Positions 34,517 through 45,056 of a DNA stretch of 60,696 nucleotides are shown piece after piece (position 1 is the first letter of the stretch; each line of letters starts with the position of its first letter). Made by a program: the position numbers and the translations under genes. Source of the DNA: an uncultured Candidatus Saccharibacteria bacterium (GTDB lineage Bacteria; Patescibacteriota; Minisyncoccia; Phycocordibacterales; UBA2100); assembly GCA_964528735.1 (NCBI GenBank), contig CAZGUV010000002.1:23202-83897 (forward strand). The letters run 5' to 3'. The notes beneath the pieces are model-generated. The model saw nothing but the letters and a program-made list of their open reading frames with translations. It was not told the DNA's origin and did no database searches.

Positions 34517-35548
34517 TTAGAGTGCTACGTACTTGCCGTCGTTTGTACGATTGAAGATGGTTCCGTCTTGGAGGTTTACGAGAATCGTTCCATCTTTTAC
34601 GTATCTTTCTCGTTTGACTCTGTCGATGATTTCCTTTTTTGAGAGCGGGCCGTCTTTCTTAAGAATATCTTTGATGACTTCCTTCACGACTCCTTTCGAG
34701 TATCCCCATTCTGAGAGTGCATACAATCCACGTCCCACAAGCACAAAGCGTTCATCTTTAATGAGTTCGTTATGACATGTTGCTTCGTGTGCCTTTCTTC
34801 CAAACAACTCTGAGATTGAACGAGCTACTTCAGCAAAATGCATCGGTGAGCCATGTCGTTTGAGAGAAAGATATGCCATGTCTCGCATATTTTTTACACG
34901 TACTCCTGGTGCGTCAATTCTGCCCCACTCACCAAGCTGGTTTCTTGAAATCTTTTTTGAAAGTGAGAGCCATCGGCGTGCAGTCTCTTGTGTGTGGTGT
35001 CGTTTGTCGAGATGAGCAAGATCCTTTAGAAAACGTGTGACAAGTTCTGACTCAGGGACAAGTTCTTCATTTGAAAGTGAGCGGTACAGGTTTCTGAGTG
35101 CGGTGTGCACTGAATCAGCGATGCCTTGGTCAGCATGCCAACGGTGATTGAATTCAGGGTCTTCCTTCAATCGCTCGAAATCATTCCCCACAACAAGTAG
35201 GAAGTGAATGTGGTTTTGCAAGCCTTCATTTTTTGAGATTGCATCGAGGAGTTCTTGTTCTGGAACAATGCCACCCATATCGATAATTATCCCTGCGAGC
35301 TCAGTGAATACTGCTGACGCCTCTTTGTATGATGGAGATGTACGGATCGCGCCGATTGCTCTATTTTCGATTTGTCGGACGCGTTCTCGTGTAATTGTGT
35401 ACCGTGTACCGATAGTCTCGAGGGTGTCTCGTTTTACCGTGTTGCCCAAGCCATAACGCCCCGTAAGAACGTCTCGCTCTCGTGACGGAAGTACCCCGAG
35501 AAGCTTTTTGGTGACCTGTTTAGGCTTGAATGTGACGGAAAACTGCAT
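34517..35548 (-). CDS. Sigma-70 region-4-like HTH plus HARE-HTH domain protein
   Basis: N-terminal SRERDVLTGRYGL...LETIGTRYTITRERVRQIENRAI (region 4). The later segment MAYLSLKRHGSPMHFAEVARSI...ERFVLVGRGLYALSEWGY resembles the HARE-HTH of the RNAP delta subunit. Confidence 0.55.
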   Translation of the reverse strand: MQFSVTFKPKQVTKKLLGVLPSRERDVLTGRYGLGNTVKRDTLETIGTRYTITRERVRQIENRAIGAIRTSPSYKEASAVFTELAGIIIDMGGIVPEQELLDAISKNEGLQNHIHFLLVVGNDFERLKEDPEFNHRWHADQGIADSVHTALRNLYRSLSNEELVPESELVTRFLKDLAHLDKRHHTQETARRWLSLSKKISRNQLGEWGRIDAPGVRVKNMRDMAYLSLKRHGSPMHFAEVARSISELFGRKAHEATCHNELIKDERFVLVGRGLYALSEWGYSKGVVKEVIKDILKKDGPLSKKEIIDRVKRERYVKDGTILVNLQDGTIFNRTNDGKYVAL

Positions 35549-35663: not shown

Positions 35664-38600
35664 CTACAGAACGATATTTACGATTTTGTTGGGTATAACT
35701 ATGACCCTGCGAGGAGTACCCTCACCAATCCATTTTTTGACCTCTGTCAAGGCCATTTCCTTGAGGGTGTCTTCGGCGAGATTTGGCGTTGCTTGGAGTG
35801 TGCCTCGAAGCTTTCCATTCACCTGAACTGCGATGGTAATAGACGATGAAATCAGCTTTTTCTCTGACCAGCGTGGAAACCTTTCAAGATGCACTGATTT
35901 TTTATGACCTCGCATGTGCCACAACTCTTCTGAGATGTGTGGTGCAAAAGGAGCAAGGAGAGTAACTAAGCTATCGAACTGCGAGCTTGAGATACCATGC
36001 TTCTCAGCTACATTTATAAAGCTCATAAGAGCTGCTATTGCAGTGTTGAATTTGAGACCTGCAACATCCTCTGTAATTTTTTTGATTACTTTATGGAGTT
36101 CTCGCTCAGTCTCCTCGTGCACGCCAAGCGATATCTTTTCCTGCAATCTCCATACTCGTTCAAGAAAACGGCGTACCCCGACGATAGCTTCCGGTGACCA
36201 CGGGTAACTCCCCGGTTCGTTAAATGGACCGATAAAGGCAAGGTACATGCGGACAGTGTCAGCCCCAAGCTTTTTCACCACGTCATCGGGGTCAATGACG
36301 TTACCTTTGCTCTTACTCATCTTTTGTCCATCAGGACCAAGAATAAGTCCCCTGTTCATTCTCTTTGCGTATGGTTCCTTTTCTCGAACCAATTTCATAT
36401 CATAGAGTGCTTTGTGCCAAAAGCGGCTGTAGAGCACGTGCATTGTGGTGTGCTCTGCACCGCCTGAGTAGAGATCTACTGGCAACCATTGTTGAAGCTT
36501 TTTTCTTTGTGCAAATTCCTTTTTGTTCTTTGGGTCCGCATATCGCAAGTAATACCACGATGAGCAAATGAAGGTGTCGAATGTATCAGTCTCTCGAGAT
36601 GCAGGAGCCTTGCATTGCGGGCACGTTGTTTTTACCCACTTCGATGCCTTTGCAAGTGGTGACTTACCATCTCCAGCTGGGAGGTAGTCATTTACGCGAG
36701 GTAGCTCTACGGGGAGACTTTTTTCAGGGACTGGTACATAGCCACATGCGCTGCAATGAATCATTGGAATTGGTACTCCCCAGTATCGTTGTCGTGAGAC
36801 TATCCAATCACGTAGGCGGTACGTTTTCTTAGTGCGACCATATGACTCAACTATCAATTTCTTGGCAGAGTCTGAATGCATGCCAGTGTATTCACCAGAA
36901 TCCAAAAGGAAACCCGAGTCAGTGTGTACCTGGTGTTGACCAGAGGTGTGCTGTTTCCAGAGGAGGTCCTTCTCTTTTATCGTAAGAAACGGCAACACTT
37001 CGTGAGCTGGCTTCCATTCATGAGTGTGCTTGGCGAGCTCATCAGCATCTACATGCCCCTGTTCATCGTTTTCAAGTTCAAAATACAAATAGGTGAATTC
37101 AACGCGTCTGTTTTCTTGTTTGATGGTATGGAAAAACTCAACGGTTGCAGCGTCTCCAATCTGCCGTATGAAGCGTGGATTTTTGTAACCGCTTTCCTCT
37201 CGGATCTCTCGTATACCTGCCTCGATGGCACTCTCATCTCTTTCGATACCTCCTGATATGAATGAGCGTATTGGATAGTTATTCCACGTTTGGCACAAGT
37301 ATTCATCCTTATTCCAATGCTTTACTATACACATAACTGCACGTCGATGGACAAATGGTAGTCCGTCTCGCACTGCATCAGCACCTGACGTTTGTCTCAC
37401 AACGCGAGAGACAACTTGCTTAATAGGGAGTGAAAAAGATTTTGCAAAAGCATTATCTCGTTCATCGTGACCAGGCACTGCCATAATTGCTCCGGTACCA
37501 TAGTGTGCAAGCACGTAATCACTTATGAAAACAGGTATTTCTTCTTTTGTTGCAGGATTGATAGCATGTACACCGAGTAGTTTGACTCCCGTTTTAACCT
37601 TATTTTCCTGTCGCTCAAGTTCGGTCTTTTGATTTGCCTGAGTACGATATGCAATTACCTCCTTCTCATTTTTTATGAGTCCGCGCTGGGCGAGCGCTCC
37701 AGTGACCCATGGATGTTCAGGTGCTAGTACCATATATGTTGCGCCGAAGATAGTATCCGGCCTTGTGGTGAACACACGTACTGTAGGCGTAATCGCCATG
37801 AGCATATCCGGCTCTCCCTTCTCGGATGAAAAGTGTGGCACTACACCTGTACCCTTAATAAGGAGTCCTCCAAGAGTATTACTCCATTCAGAGGCATCTG
37901 ATTGAGGCACGATAGTGTCGGTCTCATCTGTAAGAACTACAAAACTTTTTGCATGTGCGCGAATGGTTGCAATATCGTACTGATGCTTACACGCCCTGGT
38001 GACTGAACGGCGTGCTTTCTTGTCGAGAAATACGCCTGAGTGTGGTGTGGAGATTAATGTCACTCTCCCCACCTTCCTCCCAAGTTCTAGCACGCGAAGC
38101 GCAACGAGTCCGCCAAATGAGACACCGACCAATGCAGTTGATTCATCAAGTGTGCAGTGCTTCATGACATGTGCAGCCTGTTCATCGAGGTCTGGCTCCT
38201 GAGTGTGAGGCAATGTCGGCATTTCTACGGTATACCCGCGCTCTTCAAGCTTCCTTTTTAACCAAGGAAAGGCGTGCGACTGTGGGGAGCCATTTCTGCC
38301 ATGAAGAATAACCACCCGCTTGCACGAATCAACACCAGAAAGTGCAAAATCAATCTCCGCGCCTTCGCTTCTCCCTATCCAATTTCGCTGTGAATCCTTT
38401 ATTGCTTCTGGCCAATCAAGATTATCAAGATCATCAACAAGTCTGTCAGCATACTTAGTTATAGCAATATTCCACTGAGGCATGAGTCGTTGTTCAACCT
38501 TGTGGCCACAGCGCTCACACTCCCCTCCGATTACTTGCTCATTTGCAAGCACGGTTTTGCATGATGGACACCAATTCGCACTCGTATCTTTTCTATGTAC

Positions 38601-39044
38601 TAACCCTTTTTTGTAGAGTTGCAAGAATAGCCATTGTGTCCACTTATAATAAGCAGGGTCACACGTCACAACCTCTCTCGTCCAATCAAATGATGTACCC
38701 ATTGACGCAATCTGCTTTCGCATGTGCGCCATGTTTTTATACGTCCACGTACGCGGGTTGATGCCGCGTTTAATTGCAGCGTTTTCAGCAGGCAAACCGA
38801 ATGCATCAAACCCAATCGGAAATAGCACATTCTTGCCGGTCATTCGCATTGTTCGTGCGTACATGTCTGGTACTGCAAATGCGTACCAGTGTCCCACGTG
38901 GAGGTTGCCAGATGGATAAGGAAATTCAACAAGGACGAAATTATTCTTTTTACCTTTTTCTGAGTCCTTTACTGTATAGAGACCTTTCTTCTGCCACTCT
39001 TTCTGCCACTTCTTTTCAATACGTGCATGGTTGTACTCCTTCAT
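35664..39044 (-). CDS. leuS: Leucyl-tRNA synthetase, unusually long (1126 aa) because of two nested domains
   Basis: HIGH (NLHVGH), KMSKS (QKMSKSKGN), editing motifs TTRPDT and GTGAIMAVPGHDERD, RLRDWIVSRQRYWGVPIP, and a C-terminal tRNA-binding domain. Confidence 0.9.
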   Translation of the reverse strand: MKEYNHARIEKKWQKEWQKKGLYTVKDSEKGKKNNFVLVEFPYPSGNLHVGHWYAFAVPDMYARTMRMTGKNVLFPIGFDAFGLPAENAAIKRGINPRTWTYKNMAHMRKQIASMGTSFDWTREVVTCDPAYYKWTQWLFLQLYKKGLVHRKDTSANWCPSCKTVLANEQVIGGECERCGHKVEQRLMPQWNIAITKYADRLVDDLDNLDWPEAIKDSQRNWIGRSEGAEIDFALSGVDSCKRVVILHGRNGSPQSHAFPWLKRKLEERGYTVEMPTLPHTQEPDLDEQAAHVMKHCTLDESTALVGVSFGGLVALRVLELGRKVGRVTLISTPHSGVFLDKKARRSVTRACKHQYDIATIRAHAKSFVVLTDETDTIVPQSDASEWSNTLGGLLIKGTGVVPHFSSEKGEPDMLMAITPTVRVFTTRPDTIFGATYMVLAPEHPWVTGALAQRGLIKNEKEVIAYRTQANQKTELERQENKVKTGVKLLGVHAINPATKEEIPVFISDYVLAHYGTGAIMAVPGHDERDNAFAKSFSLPIKQVVSRVVRQTSGADAVRDGLPFVHRRAVMCIVKHWNKDEYLCQTWNNYPIRSFISGGIERDESAIEAGIREIREESGYKNPRFIRQIGDAATVEFFHTIKQENRRVEFTYLYFELENDEQGHVDADELAKHTHEWKPAHEVLPFLTIKEKDLLWKQHTSGQHQVHTDSGFLLDSGEYTGMHSDSAKKLIVESYGRTKKTYRLRDWIVSRQRYWGVPIPMIHCSACGYVPVPEKSLPVELPRVNDYLPAGDGKSPLAKASKWVKTTCPQCKAPASRETDTFDTFICSSWYYLRYADPKNKKEFAQRKKLQQWLPVDLYSGGAEHTTMHVLYSRFWHKALYDMKLVREKEPYAKRMNRGLILGPDGQKMSKSKGNVIDPDDVVKKLGADTVRMYLAFIGPFNEPGSYPWSPEAIVGVRRFLERVWRLQEKISLGVHEETERELHKVIKKITEDVAGLKFNTAIAALMSFINVAEKHGISSSQFDSLVTLLAPFAPHISEELWHMRGHKKSVHLERFPRWSEKKLISSSITIAVQVNGKLRGTLQATPNLAEDTLKEMALTEVKKWIGEGTPRRVIVIPNKIVNIVL
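36930..37409 (-). other. In-frame Nudix hydrolase domain inserted in LeuRS (aa ~546-705)
   Basis: GGIERDESAIEAGIREIREESGY is a perfect match to the Nudix box Gx5Ex7REUxEExGU. Confidence 0.7.
37785..38333 (-). other. In-frame alpha/beta serine-hydrolase domain inserted in LeuRS (aa ~238-420)
   Basis: VVILHGRNGSPQSH, GVSFGG (GxSxG), DETDTIVP (acid) and VPHF (His). The arrangement resembles YdeN/RBBP9-type esterases. Confidence 0.6.
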
Positions 39045-39086: not shown

Positions 39087-40139
39087 TTATGCGAGTGCAA
39101 TCTTGTTCGAATGCGCAGACCACTGGACTAAATTCCATAGTACGCGCATCCCCACATTCGCATTCCACTCGTTGTCATTTGCTTGAGGTGAGACTTCATT
39201 GAGGTCAAAACCAATGACTGTTCTACCGGATTCAGAAATCGTTTTGATAAGGTACACAGCTTCCTCATAACTCAGACCGCCAGGTACTGGAGTGCCAGTT
39301 CCCGGACAGAGAGATGGATTAAGCCCATCAATATCAAAGCTTATGTAGACTTTTTGAGGTAGTGACGAGACAATTGAGTTGACCGTTTCTGACCATGTAA
39401 CACCTTCAAATCGTTCCTTTTTGAGATCGGAGTCAAAATACGCATGCACTCTCCCGTCACTACTATCAATCAAGCTCTTTTCACCTGGAGAAAAATCTCG
39501 AATACCAACTTGTACCAATTTTTTCATTGTAGGGATTGTTTTGAGTACATTCCACATAATTGATGCGTGAGAATACGTAAAGCCTTCGTATGCTTCACGT
39601 AAGTCGCAGTGAGCATCAATTTGTAAAATCCCGAAGTCATCATGTATAGCACCGAGTGCTCGTATGAGACCGTAGGGAGTGCTGTGGTCGCCCCCGACGA
39701 CCCCAACAAGCTTTCCTTCACGTAAGAAATATTCAGACTCTTCCTGAATTTCATCATGAAACACCTCACATGCGACATTTATTTCTGCGAGTGCTTTTAC
39801 GTTTGGTTTTTTTCCGTGAGATATATCATCGATATACTTCTCTGCCTTTGCGCGTAGTTGTTTTCCTCGCTTCATCGAGTTTTGTTTTTCCACGAGGGGC
39901 ATCATGCAAACCGGCACTTTCCACGAATCATTTCCGTACGCCTCATGGTAGTAGTCAATTTGAGGTGACGCTTTGAGTATCGCTTCCGGTGCGTTATGTG
40001 CTCCTCCGCCATACGAAACAGTAACTCCCCATGGTGCAGGTATAAGCACAATTCGGGCAGTACTGAGCGTGTGAGGAAGTCCAAATAAACCGCTATTCTC
40101 TTTAGATACGCCATTTGGGTCAAAATGTTCGTTTTTCAT
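39087..40139 (-). CDS. speB: Agmatinase (ureohydrolase family)
   Basis: GGDHS, DAHCDLR and SFDIDGL Mn-binding motifs. Confidence 0.75.
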   Translation of the reverse strand: MKNEHFDPNGVSKENSGLFGLPHTLSTARIVLIPAPWGVTVSYGGGAHNAPEAILKASPQIDYYHEAYGNDSWKVPVCMMPLVEKQNSMKRGKQLRAKAEKYIDDISHGKKPNVKALAEINVACEVFHDEIQEESEYFLREGKLVGVVGGDHSTPYGLIRALGAIHDDFGILQIDAHCDLREAYEGFTYSHASIMWNVLKTIPTMKKLVQVGIRDFSPGEKSLIDSSDGRVHAYFDSDLKKERFEGVTWSETVNSIVSSLPQKVYISFDIDGLNPSLCPGTGTPVPGGLSYEEAVYLIKTISESGRTVIGFDLNEVSPQANDNEWNANVGMRVLWNLVQWSAHSNKIALA

Positions 40140-40147
40140 ACTAGCTA

Positions 40148-41362
40148 TTATGCCATGCGAGCCTTGTAATCATCATAGGTAAAGGTTCGTAATGTATGCA
40201 TCATTCCGTCCTTCCAGTGCAATATCGAGGGATGCTGTACGCCATTAAACATAGTACATTGGACCATATTGTATTGAATACCATCGAGAAGCACCACATA
40301 ATCGCCTACAGAAAGATTTTTCTCAAAGCTGTGAAAATGATTGAGGTGGTCGCCTGTGACGCATGTACCTCCTGCAAGTTGATAGAGGTTGTTTGCATGC
40401 TGAGTAAGATCACGCACTACACGTGCTCCAAGTACAGGCATGTCCAAGTCGGTACTCAAAAGAAAGTCAGGTGTATGTGCATTGAATGACATATCGAGTA
40501 TCGCGATTTTATACGGTACATCATCTCGTTCAACAATATCGAGAACTCGAGTCACTAGAGCGCCAGCATTTTTACATATAGCAGCCCCAGGTTCGAAGTG
40601 CATAGTGAGCTCATATTTTGACTGTATGTCGCGGATGAGTTTAATAAACCCTTCTACATCGTACGAGTCATCAGTGATTCGTTGGCCACCACCAAGATTG
40701 AGCCATTCCAATGCCTGCAAATGCGTGCCGAATCGCTCCTCAATCAGTCGTGCAGACTTTTGCAAATCTTCGAAATCCTTGTCAAAGAAAATGTGCATGT
40801 GAAATCCAGAGATGCCTTCAAGTGCCTGAGGATTCTTATGCAACTCTGCATCAAGTTCGCTTTTTCGTATTCCAAGTCGAGAGCCAGGTGCGCAAGGACT
40901 CCAGAGGTTTTCGTGCTCATCATCCCCCATGTACTCCGGGTTGATGCGAAGACCGCAATGTATCTCCTTACCAGTACGTTTGGTGTATGAGATCACCGCA
41001 TCCTTGTAGGTGTACCACTGAGGGAATGAGTTGAAGATAACGGTACTCGAATTCTCTAATATGCGTTCAAATTCGGATGCAACATACGCCGGAGCAAAGA
41101 TATGCACTGATTCATTGAAGAAATCATGACCCAGCCTCGCCTCATTCAAAGAGCTTGCCTCAGAACCATCTAGATATTGCCTTGTTATTTCAAACAGCGG
41201 ATATGTTGACCATGTCTTCAGTGCTTGAAACATTTTGCAACCCGTTGCCTCACGTATATTTTTTAGGATTTCCAAGTTGTGCCTCAACACCGCATCATCA
41301 ATAACAAATGCGCTCGATGTCACCTTCGAATAATCAATACTTAGTGAGGGTCTTGATGACAT
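40148..41362 (-). CDS. nspC: Carboxy(nor)spermidine decarboxylase
   Basis: PLP fold-III decarboxylase of ~400 aa with ALKT lysine context and LGGG. It lies directly downstream of the saccharopine-dehydrogenase-like gene. Confidence 0.7.
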   Translation of the reverse strand: MSSRPSLSIDYSKVTSSAFVIDDAVLRHNLEILKNIREATGCKMFQALKTWSTYPLFEITRQYLDGSEASSLNEARLGHDFFNESVHIFAPAYVASEFERILENSSTVIFNSFPQWYTYKDAVISYTKRTGKEIHCGLRINPEYMGDDEHENLWSPCAPGSRLGIRKSELDAELHKNPQALEGISGFHMHIFFDKDFEDLQKSARLIEERFGTHLQALEWLNLGGGQRITDDSYDVEGFIKLIRDIQSKYELTMHFEPGAAICKNAGALVTRVLDIVERDDVPYKIAILDMSFNAHTPDFLLSTDLDMPVLGARVVRDLTQHANNLYQLAGGTCVTGDHLNHFHSFEKNLSVGDYVVLLDGIQYNMVQCTMFNGVQHPSILHWKDGMMHTLRTFTYDDYKARMA

Positions 41363-41364
41363 GG

Positions 41365-42630
41365 CTAAATCTTTTCAGGCAAGGGCTTGTGGTCCACCAC
41401 AACAAACGGGAGTCCATTTTTTGAAACAATCTCAAGGAATGGCTCCGGGTCAAGTTGCTCCATGTTGTATACACCAGCACCCTCCCATACCCCACTCATA
41501 AGCATGTATGCCGCTGACATTGCGGGGACACCAGTGGTATATGAAATGGCCTGAGAGCCAACTTCTTTAAAGCACTCAGCGTGGTCACAGACGTTGTAGA
41601 TATACTTCGTGAACTCTTTTCCATCTTTCTTGCCAGTAACTATGCAACCAATATTTGTTTTGCCGCTGTAGTTTGTTGCGAGCGACGCAGGATCAGGAAG
41701 AAGTGCCTTTAAAAACTCCATCGGGACAATCTTCTCGACCTTTCCGTTGTGTTTGAATGGAACAGGTTTTATTCCTGAAATACCGATGCTTTCCATAACT
41801 CGCAAATGAGTAAGGTAGTTTTCACCGAAAGTCATCCAAAAGCGCATTCGCTTAAGTCCAGGGAGATTTTTAACAAGTGACTCCATTTCTTCATGGTACA
41901 GCAAGTAGCTTTCCTTTGGTCCTATCTGTGGGTAATCAAACGCGAAATGGATGCTGCCTTTGTTCATCACTGCAGGAGTTGTCACCCACTTTCCATGCTC
42001 CCAGTGACGCACTTCCTGAGTAACTTCTCGAATGTTGATTTCTGGGTTGAAATTTGTTGCAAAAGACTTGTCGTGACTACCAGCGTTTGCATCAAGTATA
42101 TCGACTGTAGAAATAGTGTCGAAGTACTTCTTTAGCATATACGCACAGTACATATTGGTAACCCCAGGATCAAAGCCTGCTCCGAGTACTGCCATAAGCC
42201 CCGCTTTTTTGAATTTCGACTGGTATGCCCATTGCCATTTATATTCAAACTTAGCAACATCCTTAGGTTCGTAGTTCGCAGTATCGATGTAGTGCACGCC
42301 AGTCTTTAGGCATGCATCCATTATTGTCAGGTCTTGGTATGGTAGCGCGAGGTTGAGGACTAGAAACGGCTTCACTTTTTTAATCAGTGAAACGAGTTGT
42401 GGTACTTTATCTGCGTCAACCTCGTGAGTCGCAATGGTTACACCCCATCGCTTCTTAACGTCCTTCTTTATTGCGTCAGCCTTCTTCTTTGTTCTCGATG
42501 CTACATGAATTTTTTTAAAGACAGCGCTATTCATTGCGCATTTATGGATTGCCACTGAGGCAACTCCACCAGCACCAATGATGAGGATTGTTCCATTATT
42601 GTTATTTTTTTTCATAGCTTTAGTATACAT
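41365..42630 (-). CDS. Carboxy(nor)spermidine dehydrogenase/synthase (saccharopine dehydrogenase family)
   Basis: ILIIGAGGVASVAIHKCAMN Rossmann N-terminus followed by ASRT. Length 421 aa and pairing with nspC. Confidence 0.7.
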   Translation of the reverse strand: MYTKAMKKNNNNGTILIIGAGGVASVAIHKCAMNSAVFKKIHVASRTKKKADAIKKDVKKRWGVTIATHEVDADKVPQLVSLIKKVKPFLVLNLALPYQDLTIMDACLKTGVHYIDTANYEPKDVAKFEYKWQWAYQSKFKKAGLMAVLGAGFDPGVTNMYCAYMLKKYFDTISTVDILDANAGSHDKSFATNFNPEINIREVTQEVRHWEHGKWVTTPAVMNKGSIHFAFDYPQIGPKESYLLYHEEMESLVKNLPGLKRMRFWMTFGENYLTHLRVMESIGISGIKPVPFKHNGKVEKIVPMEFLKALLPDPASLATNYSGKTNIGCIVTGKKDGKEFTKYIYNVCDHAECFKEVGSQAISYTTGVPAMSAAYMLMSGVWEGAGVYNMEQLDPEPFLEIVSKNGLPFVVVDHKPLPEKI

Positions 42631-42633
42631 TGA

Positions 42634-43707
42634 TTAAAGATACTTTTGTGCGTGGAGCAATTCAGCAATAAGCACGCCTCCACCAGCGGCGCCTCGTATT
42701 GTATTATGAGACAATCCGACAAACTTCCACTGGAGTATCGGGTCTTCCCGGAGTCTTCCCACAGTGACAGCCATGGACTTGTCTGCGTCTCTATCGAGGC
42801 GAGTTTGTGGTCGGTTCTCCTCCTCTCGATACAGGATTGCCTGCTTTGGCGCAAGCGGTAAGCAAAGCGACTGAGGGAGGCCAGAGAATGCTTTCCATGC
42901 ACTTAGTATCTCGTCTTTTGATGGTTTTTGTTCGCATTCGAATGACACACATGCCATGTGCCCATCAATGGTAGGGACACGGTTGCAATGTGCTGAGATT
43001 GTAAAAGATTCGTCGTAGAGGAATGCATTCTCGCCAACTGTCCCTAGAATTTTTCTCGGTTCGATTTCTGACTTCTGCTCTTCGCCGCCAATGTACGGGA
43101 TGACATTGTCCAGAATGTCATACGACGACACACCTGGGTGTCCTGCCCCTGATATAGACTGCATCGTTGTGACGATGACCTTTTTCAGGCGGTGTGTCTT
43201 ATGGAGCGCAGCCAGTGGCGCTGTATAGCTTTGTATTGAGCAGTTAGGCTTTACAACAATGAAACCTTTAGACCAGTTTCGATTTTTTTGTTGAATTGGA
43301 ATCATCGATAGATGGTCAGCGTTTATCTCAGGGATGATCATTGGTACATCTGGAGTATGTCTATGTGTGGATGCATTTGAAACCACCGGAATCCCAGCCT
43401 CCGCATATTTCTCCTCCCATTCCTTCGCAATCGGTGTATCGAGTGCAGAAAACACGAAATCGCATGAGTCCTTACATGCCTGAATCTGATCGACTGTTGT
43501 TACCACACAAGTCGCCACTTCGCGAGGTAGTTCTGTACTCATGTGCCAACGACCTTGTACAGCCTCCGCATACGTTTTGCCCGCAGATGATTCACTTGCG
43601 ACTACATAGACAACTTCAAACCAAGGGTGGTTGTGTAGTAGTGTAATATACTGCTGCCCGACCATCCCTGTTGCTCCAAGTATTCCTACTCGTATTTTTT
43701 TGCTCAT
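42634..43707 (-). CDS. asd: Aspartate-semialdehyde dehydrogenase
   Basis: GILGATGMVGQ, active-site PNCS and HNTIRGAAG. Confidence 0.85.
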   Translation of the reverse strand: MSKKIRVGILGATGMVGQQYITLLHNHPWFEVVYVVASESSAGKTYAEAVQGRWHMSTELPREVATCVVTTVDQIQACKDSCDFVFSALDTPIAKEWEEKYAEAGIPVVSNASTHRHTPDVPMIIPEINADHLSMIPIQQKNRNWSKGFIVVKPNCSIQSYTAPLAALHKTHRLKKVIVTTMQSISGAGHPGVSSYDILDNVIPYIGGEEQKSEIEPRKILGTVGENAFLYDESFTISAHCNRVPTIDGHMACVSFECEQKPSKDEILSAWKAFSGLPQSLCLPLAPKQAILYREEENRPQTRLDRDADKSMAVTVGRLREDPILQWKFVGLSHNTIRGAAGGGVLIAELLHAQKYL

Positions 43708-45056
43708 ATTCGTTCTATTAATGCTTTGTGTAATGATACAACAGATTGCTTTGCGCTACTTTCGTGAACAAGAAACGTCACGCTCGTCCCTGATGCAGAC
43801 TCTGAAATCATACGTACCGGTATATTTTCTCTATCGAACACATGGCAGGCATCGCGAATGACCCGGGCATTGTTCATTTGTGCTCCTACTGCACAAACGA
43901 CAGCGCAGTCTTTGCTAACCTCAACACGACCAATTTGCGAAAGCTCCTTTACGAGCTTGTCCGTGTGAAGACTTGAAGCATAGCTACACGAGACACTTAC
44001 TACTGATGTCGAAATCACATCTACCGAAACTCGATTCTTCTCAAACACACTGAATATGCGCGCCATGAGACCGCTTCCATCATAAAAATCTGGTGTATGG
44101 AGCGTAACAACGGTAGTCCCTTTTGTGGCACTTATTGCTTTTGCCTTGCCGGCGCTATTTTCAGGTATTGATGATGTAATCAAGGTACCTTCACCATCAG
44201 GCTTGAATGTATTTAATACTCGTATAGGCACCTTTTGTAGCATTGCAGGGAGCATTGTCTTGGGGTGCAGAACTTTTGCGCCGAAGTACGCAAGTTCACT
44301 TGCCTCTTCGTAGTGGAGTGTTGGTATGAGGCGAGCATGAGGTACCACTCGCGGGTCAGTCGAAAGTACGCCATCCACTTCTTTCCATATTTGAATTTCG
44401 CGAGCTCGTAATGCCCCACCGATAATAGCTGTAGTGTAATCAGAACCTCCTCTTCCAAGCGTTGTGATTTTTCCTGACTTCGTCTTACCTATAAAGCCTG
44501 TTATTACAGGGATTTCATTCTTAATGCTCGATATTTTCTTTTGTAACATGCGCGGAGACTCCAGCAATGGCTCAGAATTGCCATGAACCGTTGTTGTGCA
44601 CATACCCACATCCCACGCATCGTACGCGCGCGCCTTATTTCCTGTGCTCTGAATAGCAGCTGCAACAATCCGTGAAGACATTCTCTCTCCAAAAGAGACT
44701 ACTGTATCGCGATACTGAGGGTAGTTCCTCGGGGTCTTTTTCTTAGTGATTGAATACAAATCGGCAAGTAGTGCATCTATAAGCGACGTCTCCATGTCGA
44801 GCGAATCGAGTATTGCATAGTGAAGATGGGCAATCTTTTTGAACAACGCCTCTTTGTGCTGCGGCCGAGTACTCTGTGAAAGCTCAACAAGTAAATCAGT
44901 AACTCCAGCAACCGCTGAGACAACCACCACTGGTTTTTGTCTTATGCGCTGGGTGACTATTTGTGCTACTTGCCTGATACTTTCCGCAGTTCCAACAGAT
45001 GTCCCTCCGAATTTCATTACTATCATAGAATCAACAATTACCCTGTAATGACTCAC
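43704..45056 (-). CDS. Aspartate kinase
   Basis: MKFGGTSVG and C-terminal ACT-type repeats. The likely start is the Met at 45026. There is a 4-nt ATGA overlap with asd. Confidence 0.85.
   Translation of the reverse strand: MSHYRVIVDSMIVMKFGGTSVGTAESIRQVAQIVTQRIRQKPVVVVSAVAGVTDLLVELSQSTRPQHKEALFKKIAHLHYAILDSLDMETSLIDALLADLYSITKKKTPRNYPQYRDTVVSFGERMSSRIVAAAIQSTGNKARAYDAWDVGMCTTTVHGNSEPLLESPRMLQKKISSIKNEIPVITGFIGKTKSGKITTLGRGGSDYTTAIIGGALRAREIQIWKEVDGVLSTDPRVVPHARLIPTLHYEEASELAYFGAKVLHPKTMLPAMLQKVPIRVLNTFKPDGEGTLITSSIPENSAGKAKAISATKGTTVVTLHTPDFYDGSGLMARIFSVFEKNRVSVDVISTSVVSVSCSYASSLHTDKLVKELSQIGRVEVSKDCAVVCAVGAQMNNARVIRDACHVFDRENIPVRMISESASGTSVTFLVHESSAKQSVVSLHKALIERI

What the first reader, a model, noticed from the sequence alone, without database searches (positions are those of the whole stretch)
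37785..38333. Alpha/beta serine-hydrolase domain nested in the LeuRS editing-domain hinge
The LeuRS ORF is 1126 aa, whereas bacterial LeuRS is typically about 800-860 aa. All core motifs are intact: HVGH, KMSKS, and the editing motifs TTRPDT and GTGAIMAVPGHDERD. E. coli-type enzymes have only about ten residues between the conserved strand NWIGRSEGAEIDF and the TTRPDT editing motif. This protein has about 183 residues there (aa 238-420), and they read as a complete small alpha/beta hydrolase: VVILHGRNGSPQSH, nucleophile elbow GVSFGG (GxSxG), DETDTIVP (acid) and VPHF (His), in the order seen in YdeN/RBBP9-type serine hydrolases. The insert is in frame and contains no stops. It lacks intein junction residues. 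An esterase fold grafted next to the site that hydrolyses mischarged tRNA esters suggests an additional or replacement deacylase activity. I do not recall this architecture being described for any aaRS.
Basis: partly seen in the sequence, partly recalled or inferred. Interest (0 to 1): 0.8.

Follow-up and report, generated by a model that had tools for sequence, protein, structure and literature searches.

The report
Serine hydrolase nested inside leucyl-tRNA synthetase
This Patescibacteria leucyl-tRNA synthetase carries a complete small serine esterase (and also a NUDIX hydrolase) folded into loops of its proofreading domain, and in relatives the same esterase sits as a separate gene next to leuS, which points to an undescribed esterase partner of this translation enzyme whose substrate is still unknown.

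Summary
ORF 35664-39044 (-) is a bacterial-type LeuRS of 1126 aa. Residues 238-420 are a complete YdeN/RBBP9-type alpha/beta serine hydrolase. It sits in the turn of the CP1 beta-hairpin, about five residues before the TTRPDT editing motif. The model has pLDDT 97.7 and matches YdeN with TM 0.84. The Ser309-Asp376-His404 triad is nearly invariant in more than 140 homologues.

The architecture is not an artefact. It is typical of Kaiserbacteria/Parcubacteria LeuRS, and the hydrolase-only form reaches Doudnabacteria and Kerfeldbacteria.

The hydrolase occupies at least three different LeuRS loops. Of the eight closest free-standing relatives, six lie directly next to a leuS gene. One of those is in an operon with a YbaK-like deacylase, Ham1 and an archaeal-type LeuRS.

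The same domain also occurs in ValRS, AlaRS, TsaD, UvrA, UvrB, SecA and EngA, so the link is not exclusive.

CP1 editing residues are intact, so "replacement" is not supported here. An additional aminoacyl-ester hydrolase is plausible, because RBBP9 forms Leu/Ile/Met acyl-enzymes, but this is unproven. I found no paper describing the architecture.

The parts
35664..39044 (-). leuS: bacterial-type leucyl-tRNA synthetase, 1126 aa, carrying two nested hydrolase domains
   Evidence: ORF. TIGR00396 scores 935 bits. The AF2 model has pLDDT 89.9 and TM 0.83 (normalised to the target) to E. coli LeuRS 4aq7/5omw.
37785..38333 (-). Nested YdeN/RBBP9-type alpha/beta serine hydrolase domain (aa 238-420), inserted in the turn of the first CP1 beta-hairpin (strands 226-236 and 421-426)
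   Evidence: PF06821 scores 41.6 bits. The domain model has pLDDT 97.7. Foldseek gives 1uxo at E 3.5e-14 and TM 0.84, and RBBP9 at TM 0.82-0.83. Insertion point.
38298..38303 (-). His248-Gly249, the 'HG' motif after strand 1 (usual oxyanion-hole position in alpha/beta hydrolases)
   Evidence: H248 and G249 are at least 90% conserved. H248 is kept in all host contexts. The oxyanion-hole role is inferred from general knowledge of the fold.
38112..38126 (-). Nucleophile elbow G307-V-S309-F-G311 (catalytic Ser309 at 38118-38120)
   Evidence: Ser is present in 115 of 116 insert-bearing sequences among the 120 LeuRS homologues and in every other host protein examined. It aligns with the YdeN and RBBP9 nucleophile, RBBP9 Ser75.
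37917..37928 (-). D373-E-T-D376. Asp376 is at the position of the RBBP9/YdeN catalytic Asp. Asp373 is an extra conserved acid of the LeuRS-linked clade.
   Evidence: Alignment to 1uxo and RBBP9. Position 376 is D or E in all nested copies and D in the stand-alone relatives. Position 373 is D in 114 of 116.
37833..37835 (-). Catalytic His404 (followed by Phe405)
   Evidence: Invariant wherever the domain is present.
37404..37784 (-). Canonical CP1 editing core (aa 421-547), including the T-rich motif TTRPDT (37752-37769) and DERD (37455-37466)
   Evidence: PF13603 scores 170 bits. T426/T427/R428/D430/T431 and D527/D530 are invariant or nearly so.
36930..37403 (-). Second nested domain: NUDIX hydrolase (aa 548-705) with a complete Nudix box GGIERDESAIEAGIREIREESGY (37185-37253)
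   Evidence: PF00293 scores 42.7 bits. It lies between Tt LeuRS residues 364 and 376. Box residues are at least 90% conserved. The weak best PDB matches are DIPP and Ap4A hydrolases.
38889..38900 (-). HVGH (HIGH) class I signature
36309..36323 (-). KMSKS class I signature. The leucine-specific domain that precedes it in T. thermophilus (about Tt 581-636) is absent.

Best explanation
**Shown.** Residues 238-420 of this LeuRS are an autonomous, fully folded YdeN/RBBP9-family serine hydrolase. It has an intact, strongly conserved Ser309-Asp376-His404 triad. It is spliced into the turn of the beta-hairpin that leads into the threonine-rich motif of the CP1 editing domain. A NUDIX hydrolase is nested in a second CP1 loop. 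The synthetic and CP1 editing sites of the host enzyme are intact.

The hydrolase lineage is a recurrent partner of LeuRS in Patescibacteria. It is nested at three or more different LeuRS loops, or it is encoded as a gene of about 180 aa that abuts leuS.

**Inferred.** The domain is catalytically active and works on a LeuRS-related alpha-aminoacyl compound. By analogy with RBBP9, Ser309 attacks the carbonyl of an amino acid that has a free alpha-amine and a hydrophobic side chain. This forms an aminoacyl-enzyme, and His404/Asp376-activated water then hydrolyses it.

The most likely substrates are aminoacyl esters or anhydrides that LeuRS makes in error:
- mis-acylated tRNA(Leu) 3' ends, or
- non-cognate aminoacyl-adenylates or other aminoacyl side products.

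On this reading the domain is an accessory quality-control hydrolase that supplements CP1 rather than replacing it. The NUDIX domain (Ham1 or HAD in relatives) would then remove nucleotide by-products of the same chemistry.
For: **Fold and family.** PF06821 is above its cut-off. YdeN is hit at E 6.9e-10. The domain model has pLDDT 97.7, with TM 0.84 to YdeN and 0.82-0.83 to RBBP9.

**Triad conservation.** The triad is kept in 142 LeuRS copies and in every other host. The rest of the insert diverges to 28% identity. This indicates selection on catalysis.

**Position.** The domain sits between strands 226-236 and 421-426, five residues before T426.

**Coupling to LeuRS.**
- All 37 GTDB species-representative loci found with an insert motif lie in leuS: 36 at this site and 1 at a second site.
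- Other LeuRS carry the domain after HCxxCG or at the NUDIX site.
- Six of the eight closest stand-alone homologues lie 2-36 nt from a leuS gene, or in one case in the same gene cluster.
- One of these operons is SerH-SerH-YbaK-like deacylase-Ham1-archaeal-type LeuRS.
- More distant stand-alone members are not next to leuS.
- The domain is also nested in ValRS and AlaRS, two other editing synthetases.

**Chemistry.** RBBP9(S75Dap) traps single Leu/Ile, Met, Phe, Tyr and Trp residues and needs a free alpha-amine (PMC8866121). RBBP9 is cited as a valacyclovir-activating enzyme (reference 5 in PMC7730578).

**A hint of compensation.** Two LeuRS with an adjacent free hydrolase have YDSVPQTF in place of FTTRPDT.
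Against: - No activity was tested.
Whether Ser309 faces the CP1 pocket or the path of the tRNA CCA end is therefore unknown.
- The same domain lineage (39-45% identical to the LeuRS copies) is also nested in UvrA, SecA, EngA, TsaD and a formyltransferase. More distant copies occur in UvrB and are fused to adenylate kinase, Ham1, NUDIX, peptidase S51 and glyoxalase. The link to aminoacylation is therefore not exclusive.
- CP1 is fully intact here, so there is no obvious need for a second deacylase.
- The nested domains are about neutral in charge and the closest stand-alone ones are acidic, with a mean of -5.5. This gives no sign of autonomous tRNA binding.
- The only biochemically characterised YdeN-family esterase found prefers pNP-butyrate (PMC6119806).
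Confidence: 0.45

Rival explanations
1. Autonomous passenger enzyme. The hydrolase, like the NUDIX, Ham1, HAD and GNAT domains in relatives, is a small 'house-cleaning' or peptide/ester-degrading enzyme. On this view it has simply been nested into tolerant surface loops of constitutively expressed housekeeping proteins in streamlined Patescibacteria genomes. It acts on a soluble small molecule or peptide (for example as an RBBP9-like aminopeptidase) and has no mechanistic connection to leucylation or editing.
For: - The same lineage is nested in UvrA, UvrB, SecA, EngA, TsaD and a formyltransferase. It is fused to Adk, Ham1, NUDIX, peptidase S51, S33/S9-type hydrolases and glyoxalase.
- The triad is kept in all these contexts.
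- It occupies several different loops of LeuRS.
- Free NUDIX-SerH and SerH-NUDIX two-domain proteins exist.
- The domain's charge is neutral or acidic.
- RBBP9 is an aminopeptidase.
Against: - LeuRS is by far the dominant host: about 60 of the top 150 representatives and all 37 genome loci.
- When free, the closest relatives are still placed directly beside leuS, of both bacterial and archaeal type, in 6 of 8 cases. A pure passenger model does not predict this.
- Co-location with a YbaK-like deacylase gene also argues against it.
Confidence: 0.3
2. Target-tethered immunity against aminoacyl-nucleotide antibiotics. The hydrolase cleaves the aminoacyl-nucleotide bond of leucyl-adenylate mimics, as MccF does for processed microcin C. 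GNAT inserts in relatives would act like MccE, and NUDIX/Ham1/HAD would degrade the nucleotide part. Together they would protect the synthetase at its own active site.
For: - The set of nested domains seen in LeuRS relatives (Ser hydrolase, GNAT, NUDIX, Ham1, HAD) matches the types of enzyme known, from my own knowledge, to detoxify aminoacyl-adenylate mimics.
- NCBIfam already has a curated 'IleRS, N-acetyltransferase domain-containing' family, NF040702.
- The hosts include LeuRS, ValRS and AlaRS.
- The RBBP9 family needs a free alpha-amine on an acyl group.
Against: - This is entirely inferential. MccF belongs to a different fold (S66), and no toxin is known for these organisms.
- The model does not explain the copies in UvrA, UvrB and SecA.
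- No immunity or toxin genes are seen near leuS in the window.
Confidence: 0.1
3. Non-catalytic module. The fold is retained as a docking, regulatory or stabilising domain, for example to bind a partner protein or tRNA, and hydrolysis is irrelevant.
For: RBBP9 was first described as a protein-binding factor (my own knowledge). One homologue has Leu at the nucleophile position (P0088).
Against: The Ser, His, HG and acid positions are essentially invariant, while the rest of the domain drifts to 28% identity.
Confidence: 0.05
4. Artefact. The segment is a chimeric assembly, a frameshifted separate gene or an intein.
For: None found, apart from a slightly higher GC in the insert (0.50 against 0.455).
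Against: - The segment is in frame with no stops.
- An identical protein is found on independent contigs, and more than 100 diverged homologues share the same junctions.
- A single high-confidence model covers the whole chain.
- There is no Hint domain, no junction residues and no flanking repeats.
Confidence: 0.01

Closest known systems
B. subtilis YdeN (PDB 1uxo) and human RBBP9 (2qs9, 7oex), Pfam PF06821 Ser_hydrolase
   Same: The same lid-less alpha/beta fold of about 180 aa (TM 0.82-0.84). The Ser-Asp-His positions, the GxSxG elbow and the HG motif all match. RBBP9 hydrolyses N-terminal hydrophobic aminoacyl groups through an aminoacyl-Ser intermediate.
   Different: Those proteins are free-standing. 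Here the domain is nested inside another enzyme, with a conserved extra C-terminal helix (E411-P-D-V-L-M) that brings the chain back to the host. It also has conserved D373, D341 and R345, which the wider family lacks. Sequence identity is only 20-26%.
Canonical bacterial LeuRS (T. thermophilus 1h3n/2bte, E. coli 4aq7)
   Same: The catalytic core, ZN motifs, CP1 editing domain with the T-rich motif and conserved Asp, the anticodon-binding domain and the C-terminal domain all align.
   Different: There are two nested domains of about 183 and 158 aa in CP1 loops, and the leucine-specific domain is missing.
Known aa-tRNA editing modules and trans-editing factors (CP1, INS/YbaK/ProXp, AlaX/second additional domain, DTD)
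   Same: Genomic coupling to a synthetase by fusion or adjacency. One relative shares an operon with a YbaK-like gene. The chemistry expected from the family is ester or amide hydrolysis of an aminoacyl group.
   Different: It has an alpha/beta-hydrolase fold with a covalent Ser nucleophile. To my knowledge none of the known editing modules uses this fold or a Ser-Asp-His triad. No deacylase activity has been shown.
aaRS with appended or nested accessory enzymes, e.g. NCBIfam NF040702 'IleRS, N-acetyltransferase domain-containing'
   Same: A class Ia synthetase that carries an extra small enzyme domain within one polypeptide. A LeuRS relative with GNAT plus the hydrolase exists (P0247).
   Different: The domain type and the host are different. 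This protein scores far below that family's cut-off (78.6 against 1999 bits).

Membership tests
Bacterial-type leucyl-tRNA synthetase (TIGR00396 leuS_bact) | Whole-protein HMM score above the curated cut-off | tested here: met
   935.4 bits against a cut-off of 548.4.
Bacterial-type leucyl-tRNA synthetase (TIGR00396 leuS_bact) | Class I HIGH and KMSKS signatures | tested here: met
   HVGH at aa 49-52 and KMSKS at aa 908-912. Both are invariant in the family.
Bacterial-type leucyl-tRNA synthetase (TIGR00396 leuS_bact) | CP1 editing domain with the threonine-rich motif and the conserved Asp of GTG..HDxRD | tested here: met
   PF13603 scores 170.7 bits. TTRPDT and HDERD are present and invariant.
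Bacterial-type leucyl-tRNA synthetase (TIGR00396 leuS_bact) | Leucylation of tRNA(Leu) | not testable with these tools
   Needs an enzyme assay.
YdeN/RBBP9 serine hydrolase family (Pfam PF06821) | HMM score above the gathering threshold | tested here: met
   41.6 bits for the insert alone and 36.9 bits in the full protein, against a gathering score of 22.
YdeN/RBBP9 serine hydrolase family (Pfam PF06821) | Small lid-less alpha/beta hydrolase fold that superposes on 1uxo and 2qs9 | tested here: met
   AF2 pLDDT 97.7. Foldseek gives E 3.5e-14, TM 0.84 and rmsd 2.5 A to 1uxo, and TM 0.82-0.83 to RBBP9. The next tier of matches has TM 0.55-0.75.
YdeN/RBBP9 serine hydrolase family (Pfam PF06821) | Ser-Asp-His triad at the family's positions | tested here: met
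   S309 and D376 align with the RBBP9 Ser75 and Asp138 positions. H404 follows in the conserved HF motif. All three are conserved across homologues. Spatial proximity was not measured because no coordinates were available.
YdeN/RBBP9 serine hydrolase family (Pfam PF06821) | Hydrolytic activity dependent on the Ser | not testable with these tools
   Needs an assay or an activity-based probe.
Aminoacyl-tRNA editing / trans-editing factors (functional class) | Hydrolysis of mis-acylated tRNA | not testable with these tools
   No biochemical data.
Aminoacyl-tRNA editing / trans-editing factors (functional class) | Genomic coupling to the cognate synthetase | tested here: met
   Nested at three or more LeuRS sites. 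Six of the eight closest free homologues are adjacent to leuS.
Aminoacyl-tRNA editing / trans-editing factors (functional class) | Belongs to one of the known editing folds (CP1, INS/YbaK, AlaX, DTD) | tested here: not met
   The fold is an alpha/beta hydrolase. It is therefore not a member of any known editing family. This does not exclude that it works like one.
Intein | Hint domain with an N-terminal Cys/Ser and a C-terminal His-Asn followed by Cys/Ser/Thr | tested here: not met
   No Hint or intein Pfam hit. The junctions read ..LSG|VDSCKR.. and ..MAITP|TVRVF...
NUDIX hydrolase (PF00293), for the second insert | Nudix box GX5EX7REUXEEXGU and an HMM score above threshold | tested here: met
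   42.7 bits against 21.1. The box is G598-x5-E604-x7-R612-E613-I-R-E616-E617-S-G619-Y.

The most novel reading that the evidence does not exclude
The YdeN/RBBP9-type hydrolase is a previously unrecognised class of synthetase-associated proofreading or protective enzyme. It would be a covalent Ser-Asp-His aminoacyl-ester/anhydride hydrolase dedicated to LeuRS, and occasionally to ValRS or AlaRS. It would act in cis when nested and in trans when encoded beside leuS. With NUDIX, Ham1 or HAD partners, it would form a modular quality-control or antibiotic-immunity kit built directly onto the synthetase in Patescibacteria and some organisms with archaeal-type LeuRS.
Probability: 0.3. Interest if true: 0.85.

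Novelty: new variant of a known kind. Interest (0 to 1): 0.7.

Why it matters
Proofreading by aminoacyl-tRNA synthetases is thought to rest on a small, closed set of editing folds. A catalytic-triad esterase that is repeatedly welded into LeuRS, or parked beside it, would be a new candidate for that set. It would make an open question directly testable: how genome-reduced, amino-acid-scavenging Patescibacteria keep translation accurate, or protect it from inhibitors.

Even if the domain proves to be an unrelated passenger, the family is a striking natural example of whole enzymes nested in the loops of an essential enzyme. At least three LeuRS loops accept Ser-hydrolase, NUDIX, HAD, Ham1, GNAT and even a Y1-transposase-like domain. 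This is useful for protein engineering and for understanding how streamlined genomes package functions. It also shows that automatic names such as 'alpha/beta fold hydrolase' or 'NUDIX domain-containing protein' are hiding the organism's LeuRS in public annotations.

Tried and rejected
- **Insert-alone word-index search.** It returned nothing, although the identical full protein is in the database. This is a tool limitation, not evidence of absence.
- **Genome scan with the broad insert alignment.** It failed because there was no conserved stretch. I repeated it with a narrower alignment. That scan samples only copies with the T[AV][IVL][VI][GA][HV]SFGG motif.
- **Distance from Ser309 to the CP1 pocket.** Model coordinates are not exposed, so the key geometric test could not be done.
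- **Signs of recent mobility.** I looked for direct or inverted repeats at the insert borders and found only a 10-nt chance repeat and an unrelated 15-nt inverted pair. GC and GC3 differ only slightly.
- **A free paralogue of either insert in the window.** None was found.
- **Intein hypothesis.** Rejected.
- **Pure 'promiscuous passenger' model.** I favoured it, then downgraded it when the gene neighbourhoods of the free homologues turned out to be leuS.
- **Net charge as a proxy for tRNA binding.** Uninformative, or mildly negative.
- **Literature.** Ten searches, plus the AARS Online paper, found no description of the architecture. One further search was rejected for syntax.
- **Organism names.** They could not be obtained for the stand-alone proteins.
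- **dN/dS.** Not attempted, because the closest relative is only about 76-80% identical and synonymous sites would be saturated.
Full report
**1. The observation**

- Between 35664 and 39044 on the minus strand there is one uninterrupted ORF of 1126 aa.
- It is a bacterial-type leucyl-tRNA synthetase. TIGR00396 scores 935 bits against a cut-off of 548. Pfam finds the class I catalytic domain, the LeuRS editing domain and the anticodon-binding domain.
- HVGH, KMSKS, TTRPDT and GTGAIMAVPGHDERD are all present at the coordinates I checked by translation.
Query 1-238 matches Tt 1-239, and query 422-547 matches Tt 243-364. About 183 residues (aa 238-420, nt 37785-38333) therefore replace a three-residue turn.
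- The same alignment shows a second break that the finding does not mention. Query 548-705 lies between Tt 364 and 376.
- It also shows that the leucine-specific domain (about Tt 581-636) is absent.

**2. What the insert is**

- On its own the 183-aa segment scores 41.6 bits on Pfam PF06821 (Ser_hydrolase, gathering score 22).
- It finds B. subtilis YdeN (1uxo) at E=6.9e-10 and human RBBP9 at E of about 0.007 among solved structures.
- An AlphaFold2 model of the segment with 24 aligned homologues has mean pLDDT 97.7 and pTM 0.94.
- Foldseek puts YdeN first (E 3.5e-14, TM 0.84, rmsd 2.5 A). RBBP9 entries follow at TM 0.82-0.83. Other alpha/beta hydrolases match less well (TM 0.55-0.75).
- In the full-length model (pLDDT 89.9, pTM 0.77) the insert keeps pLDDT 93-98. 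It sits between strand 226-236 and strand 421-426, the hairpin that runs straight into T426-T431.
- The whole model superposes on E. coli and T. thermophilus LeuRS, with target-normalised TM up to 0.83.
Ser309 is in GVSFG. Asp376, the last D of DETD, is at the position of the RBBP9 and YdeN acid. His404 is in PHF.
- There is no intein domain, no splice-junction residues and no flanking repeats.
- The second insert is a NUDIX domain (42.7 bits against 21.1) with a perfect Nudix box at G598-Y620. Its closest solved relatives are only weak matches: diphosphoinositol-polyphosphate/ApnA hydrolases and Ap4A hydrolases.

**3. It is real and widespread**

- A database search with the full protein returned an identical sequence and more than 100 clusters at 53-80% identity. 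These are 1122-1150 aa long with the same Pfam content.
- Where named, they are Candidatus Kaiserbacteria, Parcubacteria, Paceibacterota, Minisyncoccia or Patescibacteria. Some carry automatic names such as 'alpha/beta fold hydrolase', 'NUDIX domain-containing protein' or 'leucyl-tRNA synthetase/predicted esterase YcpF'.
- Variants exist with the hydrolase only (about 961-985 aa), with NUDIX only (about 956-965 aa), or with the hydrolase plus a HAD domain (P0113).
- Among the 116 of these 120 homologues that carry the insert, Ser309 is present in 115, His404 in all, and position 376 is always D or E. H248, G249, G307, G311, R345, D373, F405 and E411 are at least 90% conserved.
- The insert as a whole diverges to 28% identity. 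The catalytic apparatus is therefore under purifying selection.
- The CP1 residues T426, T427, R428, D430, T431, D527 and D530 are invariant or nearly so. The canonical editing site has not been given up.
- A scan of one genome per GTDB species with a motif from the insert found 37 loci, all inside leuS. Thirty-six are at this site and one is at a second site. They include Doudnabacteria and Kerfeldbacteria, where the NUDIX domain is absent.

**4. The wider family changed my reading twice**

An exhaustive profile search with the insert against 1.84 billion representative proteins gave 4937 hits at E<=1e-3 and 96 at E<=1e-30.

*First shift, towards a passenger model.* Of the 149 new sequences among the top 150 listed, about 60 are LeuRS, about 70 are free proteins of 172-195 aa, and the rest are other proteins. 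Pfam scans of these showed the following.

- The same domain occurs at other LeuRS positions. One is after the HCxxCG hairpin, which is roughly residue 768 of this protein (P0137, P0180, P0161, P0150, P0181, P0269). Another is the NUDIX site (P0257).
- Other LeuRS carry extra nested domains: GNAT (P0247), Ham1 (P0257) and a Y1-transposase-like domain (P0172).
- The domain is nested in ValRS (P0177) and AlaRS (P0178).
- It is also nested in UvrA, UvrB, SecA, EngA, TsaD and a formyltransferase.
- It is fused to adenylate kinase, Ham1, NUDIX (in both orders), peptidase S51, S33/S9-type hydrolases and glyoxalase.
- The copies in ValRS, AlaRS, SecA, TsaD, UvrA and EngA are 39-45% identical to LeuRS copies. 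That is as close as LeuRS copies are to one another.
- All of them keep Ser, His and the acid.

Taken alone, this favours a promiscuous passenger enzyme.

*Second shift, back towards LeuRS coupling.* I then looked at where the free proteins closest to the nested domain are encoded.

| Free protein | Locus | Position relative to leuS |
|---|---|---|
| P0126 | L041-L044 | 6 nt upstream of a complete, insert-less 809-aa leuS |
| P0132 | L045 | 2 nt upstream of leuS |
| P0152 | L049/L050 | 24 nt upstream of a NUDIX-bearing leuS |
| P0158 | L051 | 36 nt upstream of leuS |
| P0170 | L052 | 2 nt downstream of leuS, followed by Sua5/TsaC |
| P0144 | L048 | cluster: hydrolase, hydrolase, YbaK-like tRNA_edit, Ham1, archaeal-type LeuRS (TIGR00395, 751 bits) |

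- The other two look-ups were on contigs too short to judge.
- Two more distant free members are not near leuS.
- Six of eight adjacencies, in different arrangements and with both LeuRS types, cannot be chance.
- The lineage to which this insert belongs is therefore a dedicated LeuRS partner. Nesting is one of several ways the partnership is encoded.

**5. How it most likely works**

*Shown:*
- an intact, independently folded Ser-Asp-His hydrolase, tethered five residues from the editing motif;
- intact synthetic and CP1 sites;
- conserved coupling to LeuRS.

*Established for the family:*
- RBBP9 with its nucleophile replaced by diaminopropionate traps single Leu/Ile, Met, Phe, Tyr and Trp residues.
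- RBBP9 hydrolyses aminoacyl-AMC only when the alpha-amine is free, and it binds Phe in a hydrophobic cage (PMC8866121).
- RBBP9 is also cited as a valacyclovir-activating enzyme (reference 5 in PMC7730578). From my own knowledge, valacyclovir is the valyl ester of a nucleoside analogue.
- A YdeN-family esterase, ML-005, prefers short acyl esters (PMC6119806).

*Inferred:*
- Ser309 attacks an alpha-aminoacyl ester or anhydride related to LeuRS chemistry. Candidates are the 3' end of a mis-acylated tRNA(Leu), a non-cognate aminoacyl-adenylate, or another aminoacyl side product.
- The aminoacyl-enzyme is then hydrolysed. This would add a second hydrolytic quality-control step to CP1.
- In the sequence alignment, the residues at the positions of the RBBP9 side-chain cage are F339, I378 and V379. 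A conserved D341/R345 loop lies where RBBP9 carries its amine-binding Glu108. This fits a hydrophobic aminoacyl substrate, but loop alignments at 20% identity are not reliable.
- The recurrent company of nucleotide pyrophosphatases (NUDIX here; Ham1 or HAD elsewhere; free NUDIX-hydrolase fusions) suggests that nucleotide by-products belong to the same task.
- Two related LeuRS with an adjacent free hydrolase have YDSVPQTF in place of FTTRPDT while keeping AHDERD. This is a hint of compensation, but it probably reflects a single evolutionary event.

I put this mechanism at about 0.45.

**6. Rivals**

- The passenger model (0.3) is kept alive by three things: the copies in UvrA, UvrB, SecA and EngA; the lack of any charge signature for tRNA binding; and my inability to measure the geometry, because coordinates are not exposed.
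- An immunity role against aminoacyl-adenylate mimics (0.1) fits the odd set of nested domains (Ser hydrolase, GNAT, NUDIX, Ham1, HAD). It has no direct support.
- A non-catalytic role (0.05) conflicts with the conservation pattern.
- An artefact or intein (0.01 or less) conflicts with the comparative data.

**7. Comparison with what is known, and novelty**

- The host is an ordinary member of bacterial LeuRS.
- The insert is a member of PF06821 by score, fold and triad.
- The insert is not a member of any known editing fold, so it should not be filed as one. Whether it works like one is untested.
- Nested or appended accessory enzymes in synthetases are known. One example is the curated NCBIfam family of IleRS with a GNAT domain.
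- In ten literature searches and in the AARS Online description I found no account of a LeuRS with an alpha/beta hydrolase or NUDIX domain, or of a hydrolase-leuS operon. That library is incomplete, and the sequences themselves are public and auto-annotated.
- I therefore rate it a new variant of a known kind, with interest 0.7. It is common in nature, apparently undescribed, and it offers a directly testable candidate for a new synthetase-associated hydrolase.

**8. Surroundings**

- The neighbours on the same strand are YceG/MltG, a sigma-70-region-4/HARE-HTH protein, an arginase-family enzyme, a carboxynorspermidine-decarboxylase-like protein, a saccharopine-dehydrogenase-like protein, aspartate-semialdehyde dehydrogenase and aspartokinase.
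- Ribosomal protein S4 and RpoA lie further along.
- Nothing there bears on the insert. No tRNA genes were found in the window, and there is no free copy of either inserted domain.

Noticed in passing
window 36930-37403 (-), aa 548-705 of LeuRS: There is a second nested domain, a NUDIX hydrolase with a complete Nudix box, inserted in another CP1 loop (between Tt LeuRS residues 364 and 376). The box is degenerate in a few homologues (P0012, P0034, P0058, P0078, P0082).
   Followed up: partly
window about 36309-36335 (-), just before KMSKS: The leucine-specific domain of T. thermophilus and E. coli LeuRS (about Tt 581-636) is absent. Query residues 904-908 bridge the gap.
   Followed up: no
homologues P0113, P0247, P0257, P0172 (not in the window): Other Patescibacteria LeuRS carry further nested domains in the same loops. 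These are HAD (P0113), GNAT plus hydrolase (P0247), Ham1 plus hydrolase (P0257), and an IS200-like Y1 transposase domain (PF01797, 52.8 bits) at the site used here (P0172).
   Followed up: partly
homologues P0177, P0178, P0191/P0272, P0260, P0148, P0198, P0169, P0210, P0253, P0244: The same hydrolase lineage is nested in or fused to ValRS, AlaRS, UvrA, UvrB, SecA, EngA/Der, TsaD, a formyltransferase, adenylate kinase and Ham1. The catalytic Ser and His are kept in all of them.
   Followed up: partly
L048:4001-8549: A gene cluster reads hydrolase, hydrolase, YbaK-like tRNA_edit protein, Ham1, archaeal-type LeuRS (GCA_020049755.1). The organism was not identified. Its neighbours have archaeal-style HTH regulators.
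   Followed up: partly
L045:2831-4558 and L052:1578-3998: Two LeuRS that have a free hydrolase gene abutting them carry YDSVPQTF in place of the FTTRPDT threonine-rich editing motif, while keeping AHDERD. Their CP1 may be editing-impaired.
   Followed up: partly
L052:4546-5154; P0169: There are links to t6A chemistry. Sua5/TsaC is the gene immediately after the leuS-hydrolase pair in L052. The hydrolase is also nested inside a TsaD in P0169.
   Followed up: no
window 39087-45056 (-): Directly upstream of leuS lies a run of genes: an arginase-family enzyme, a carboxynorspermidine-decarboxylase-like protein, a saccharopine-dehydrogenase-like protein, Asd and aspartokinase. This looks like an aspartate-semialdehyde-dependent polyamine (norspermidine/spermidine) pathway, which is unexpected in a reduced genome.
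   Followed up: no
window 34517-35548 (-): A 343-aa protein combines a sigma-70 region 4 domain at its N-terminus with a HARE-HTH domain. No other sigma regions are detected.
   Followed up: no
homologue annotations: Several of these LeuRS are named only 'alpha/beta fold hydrolase', 'NUDIX domain-containing protein' or 'hypothetical protein' in public records. Automated inventories could therefore score these genomes as lacking LeuRS.
   Followed up: no
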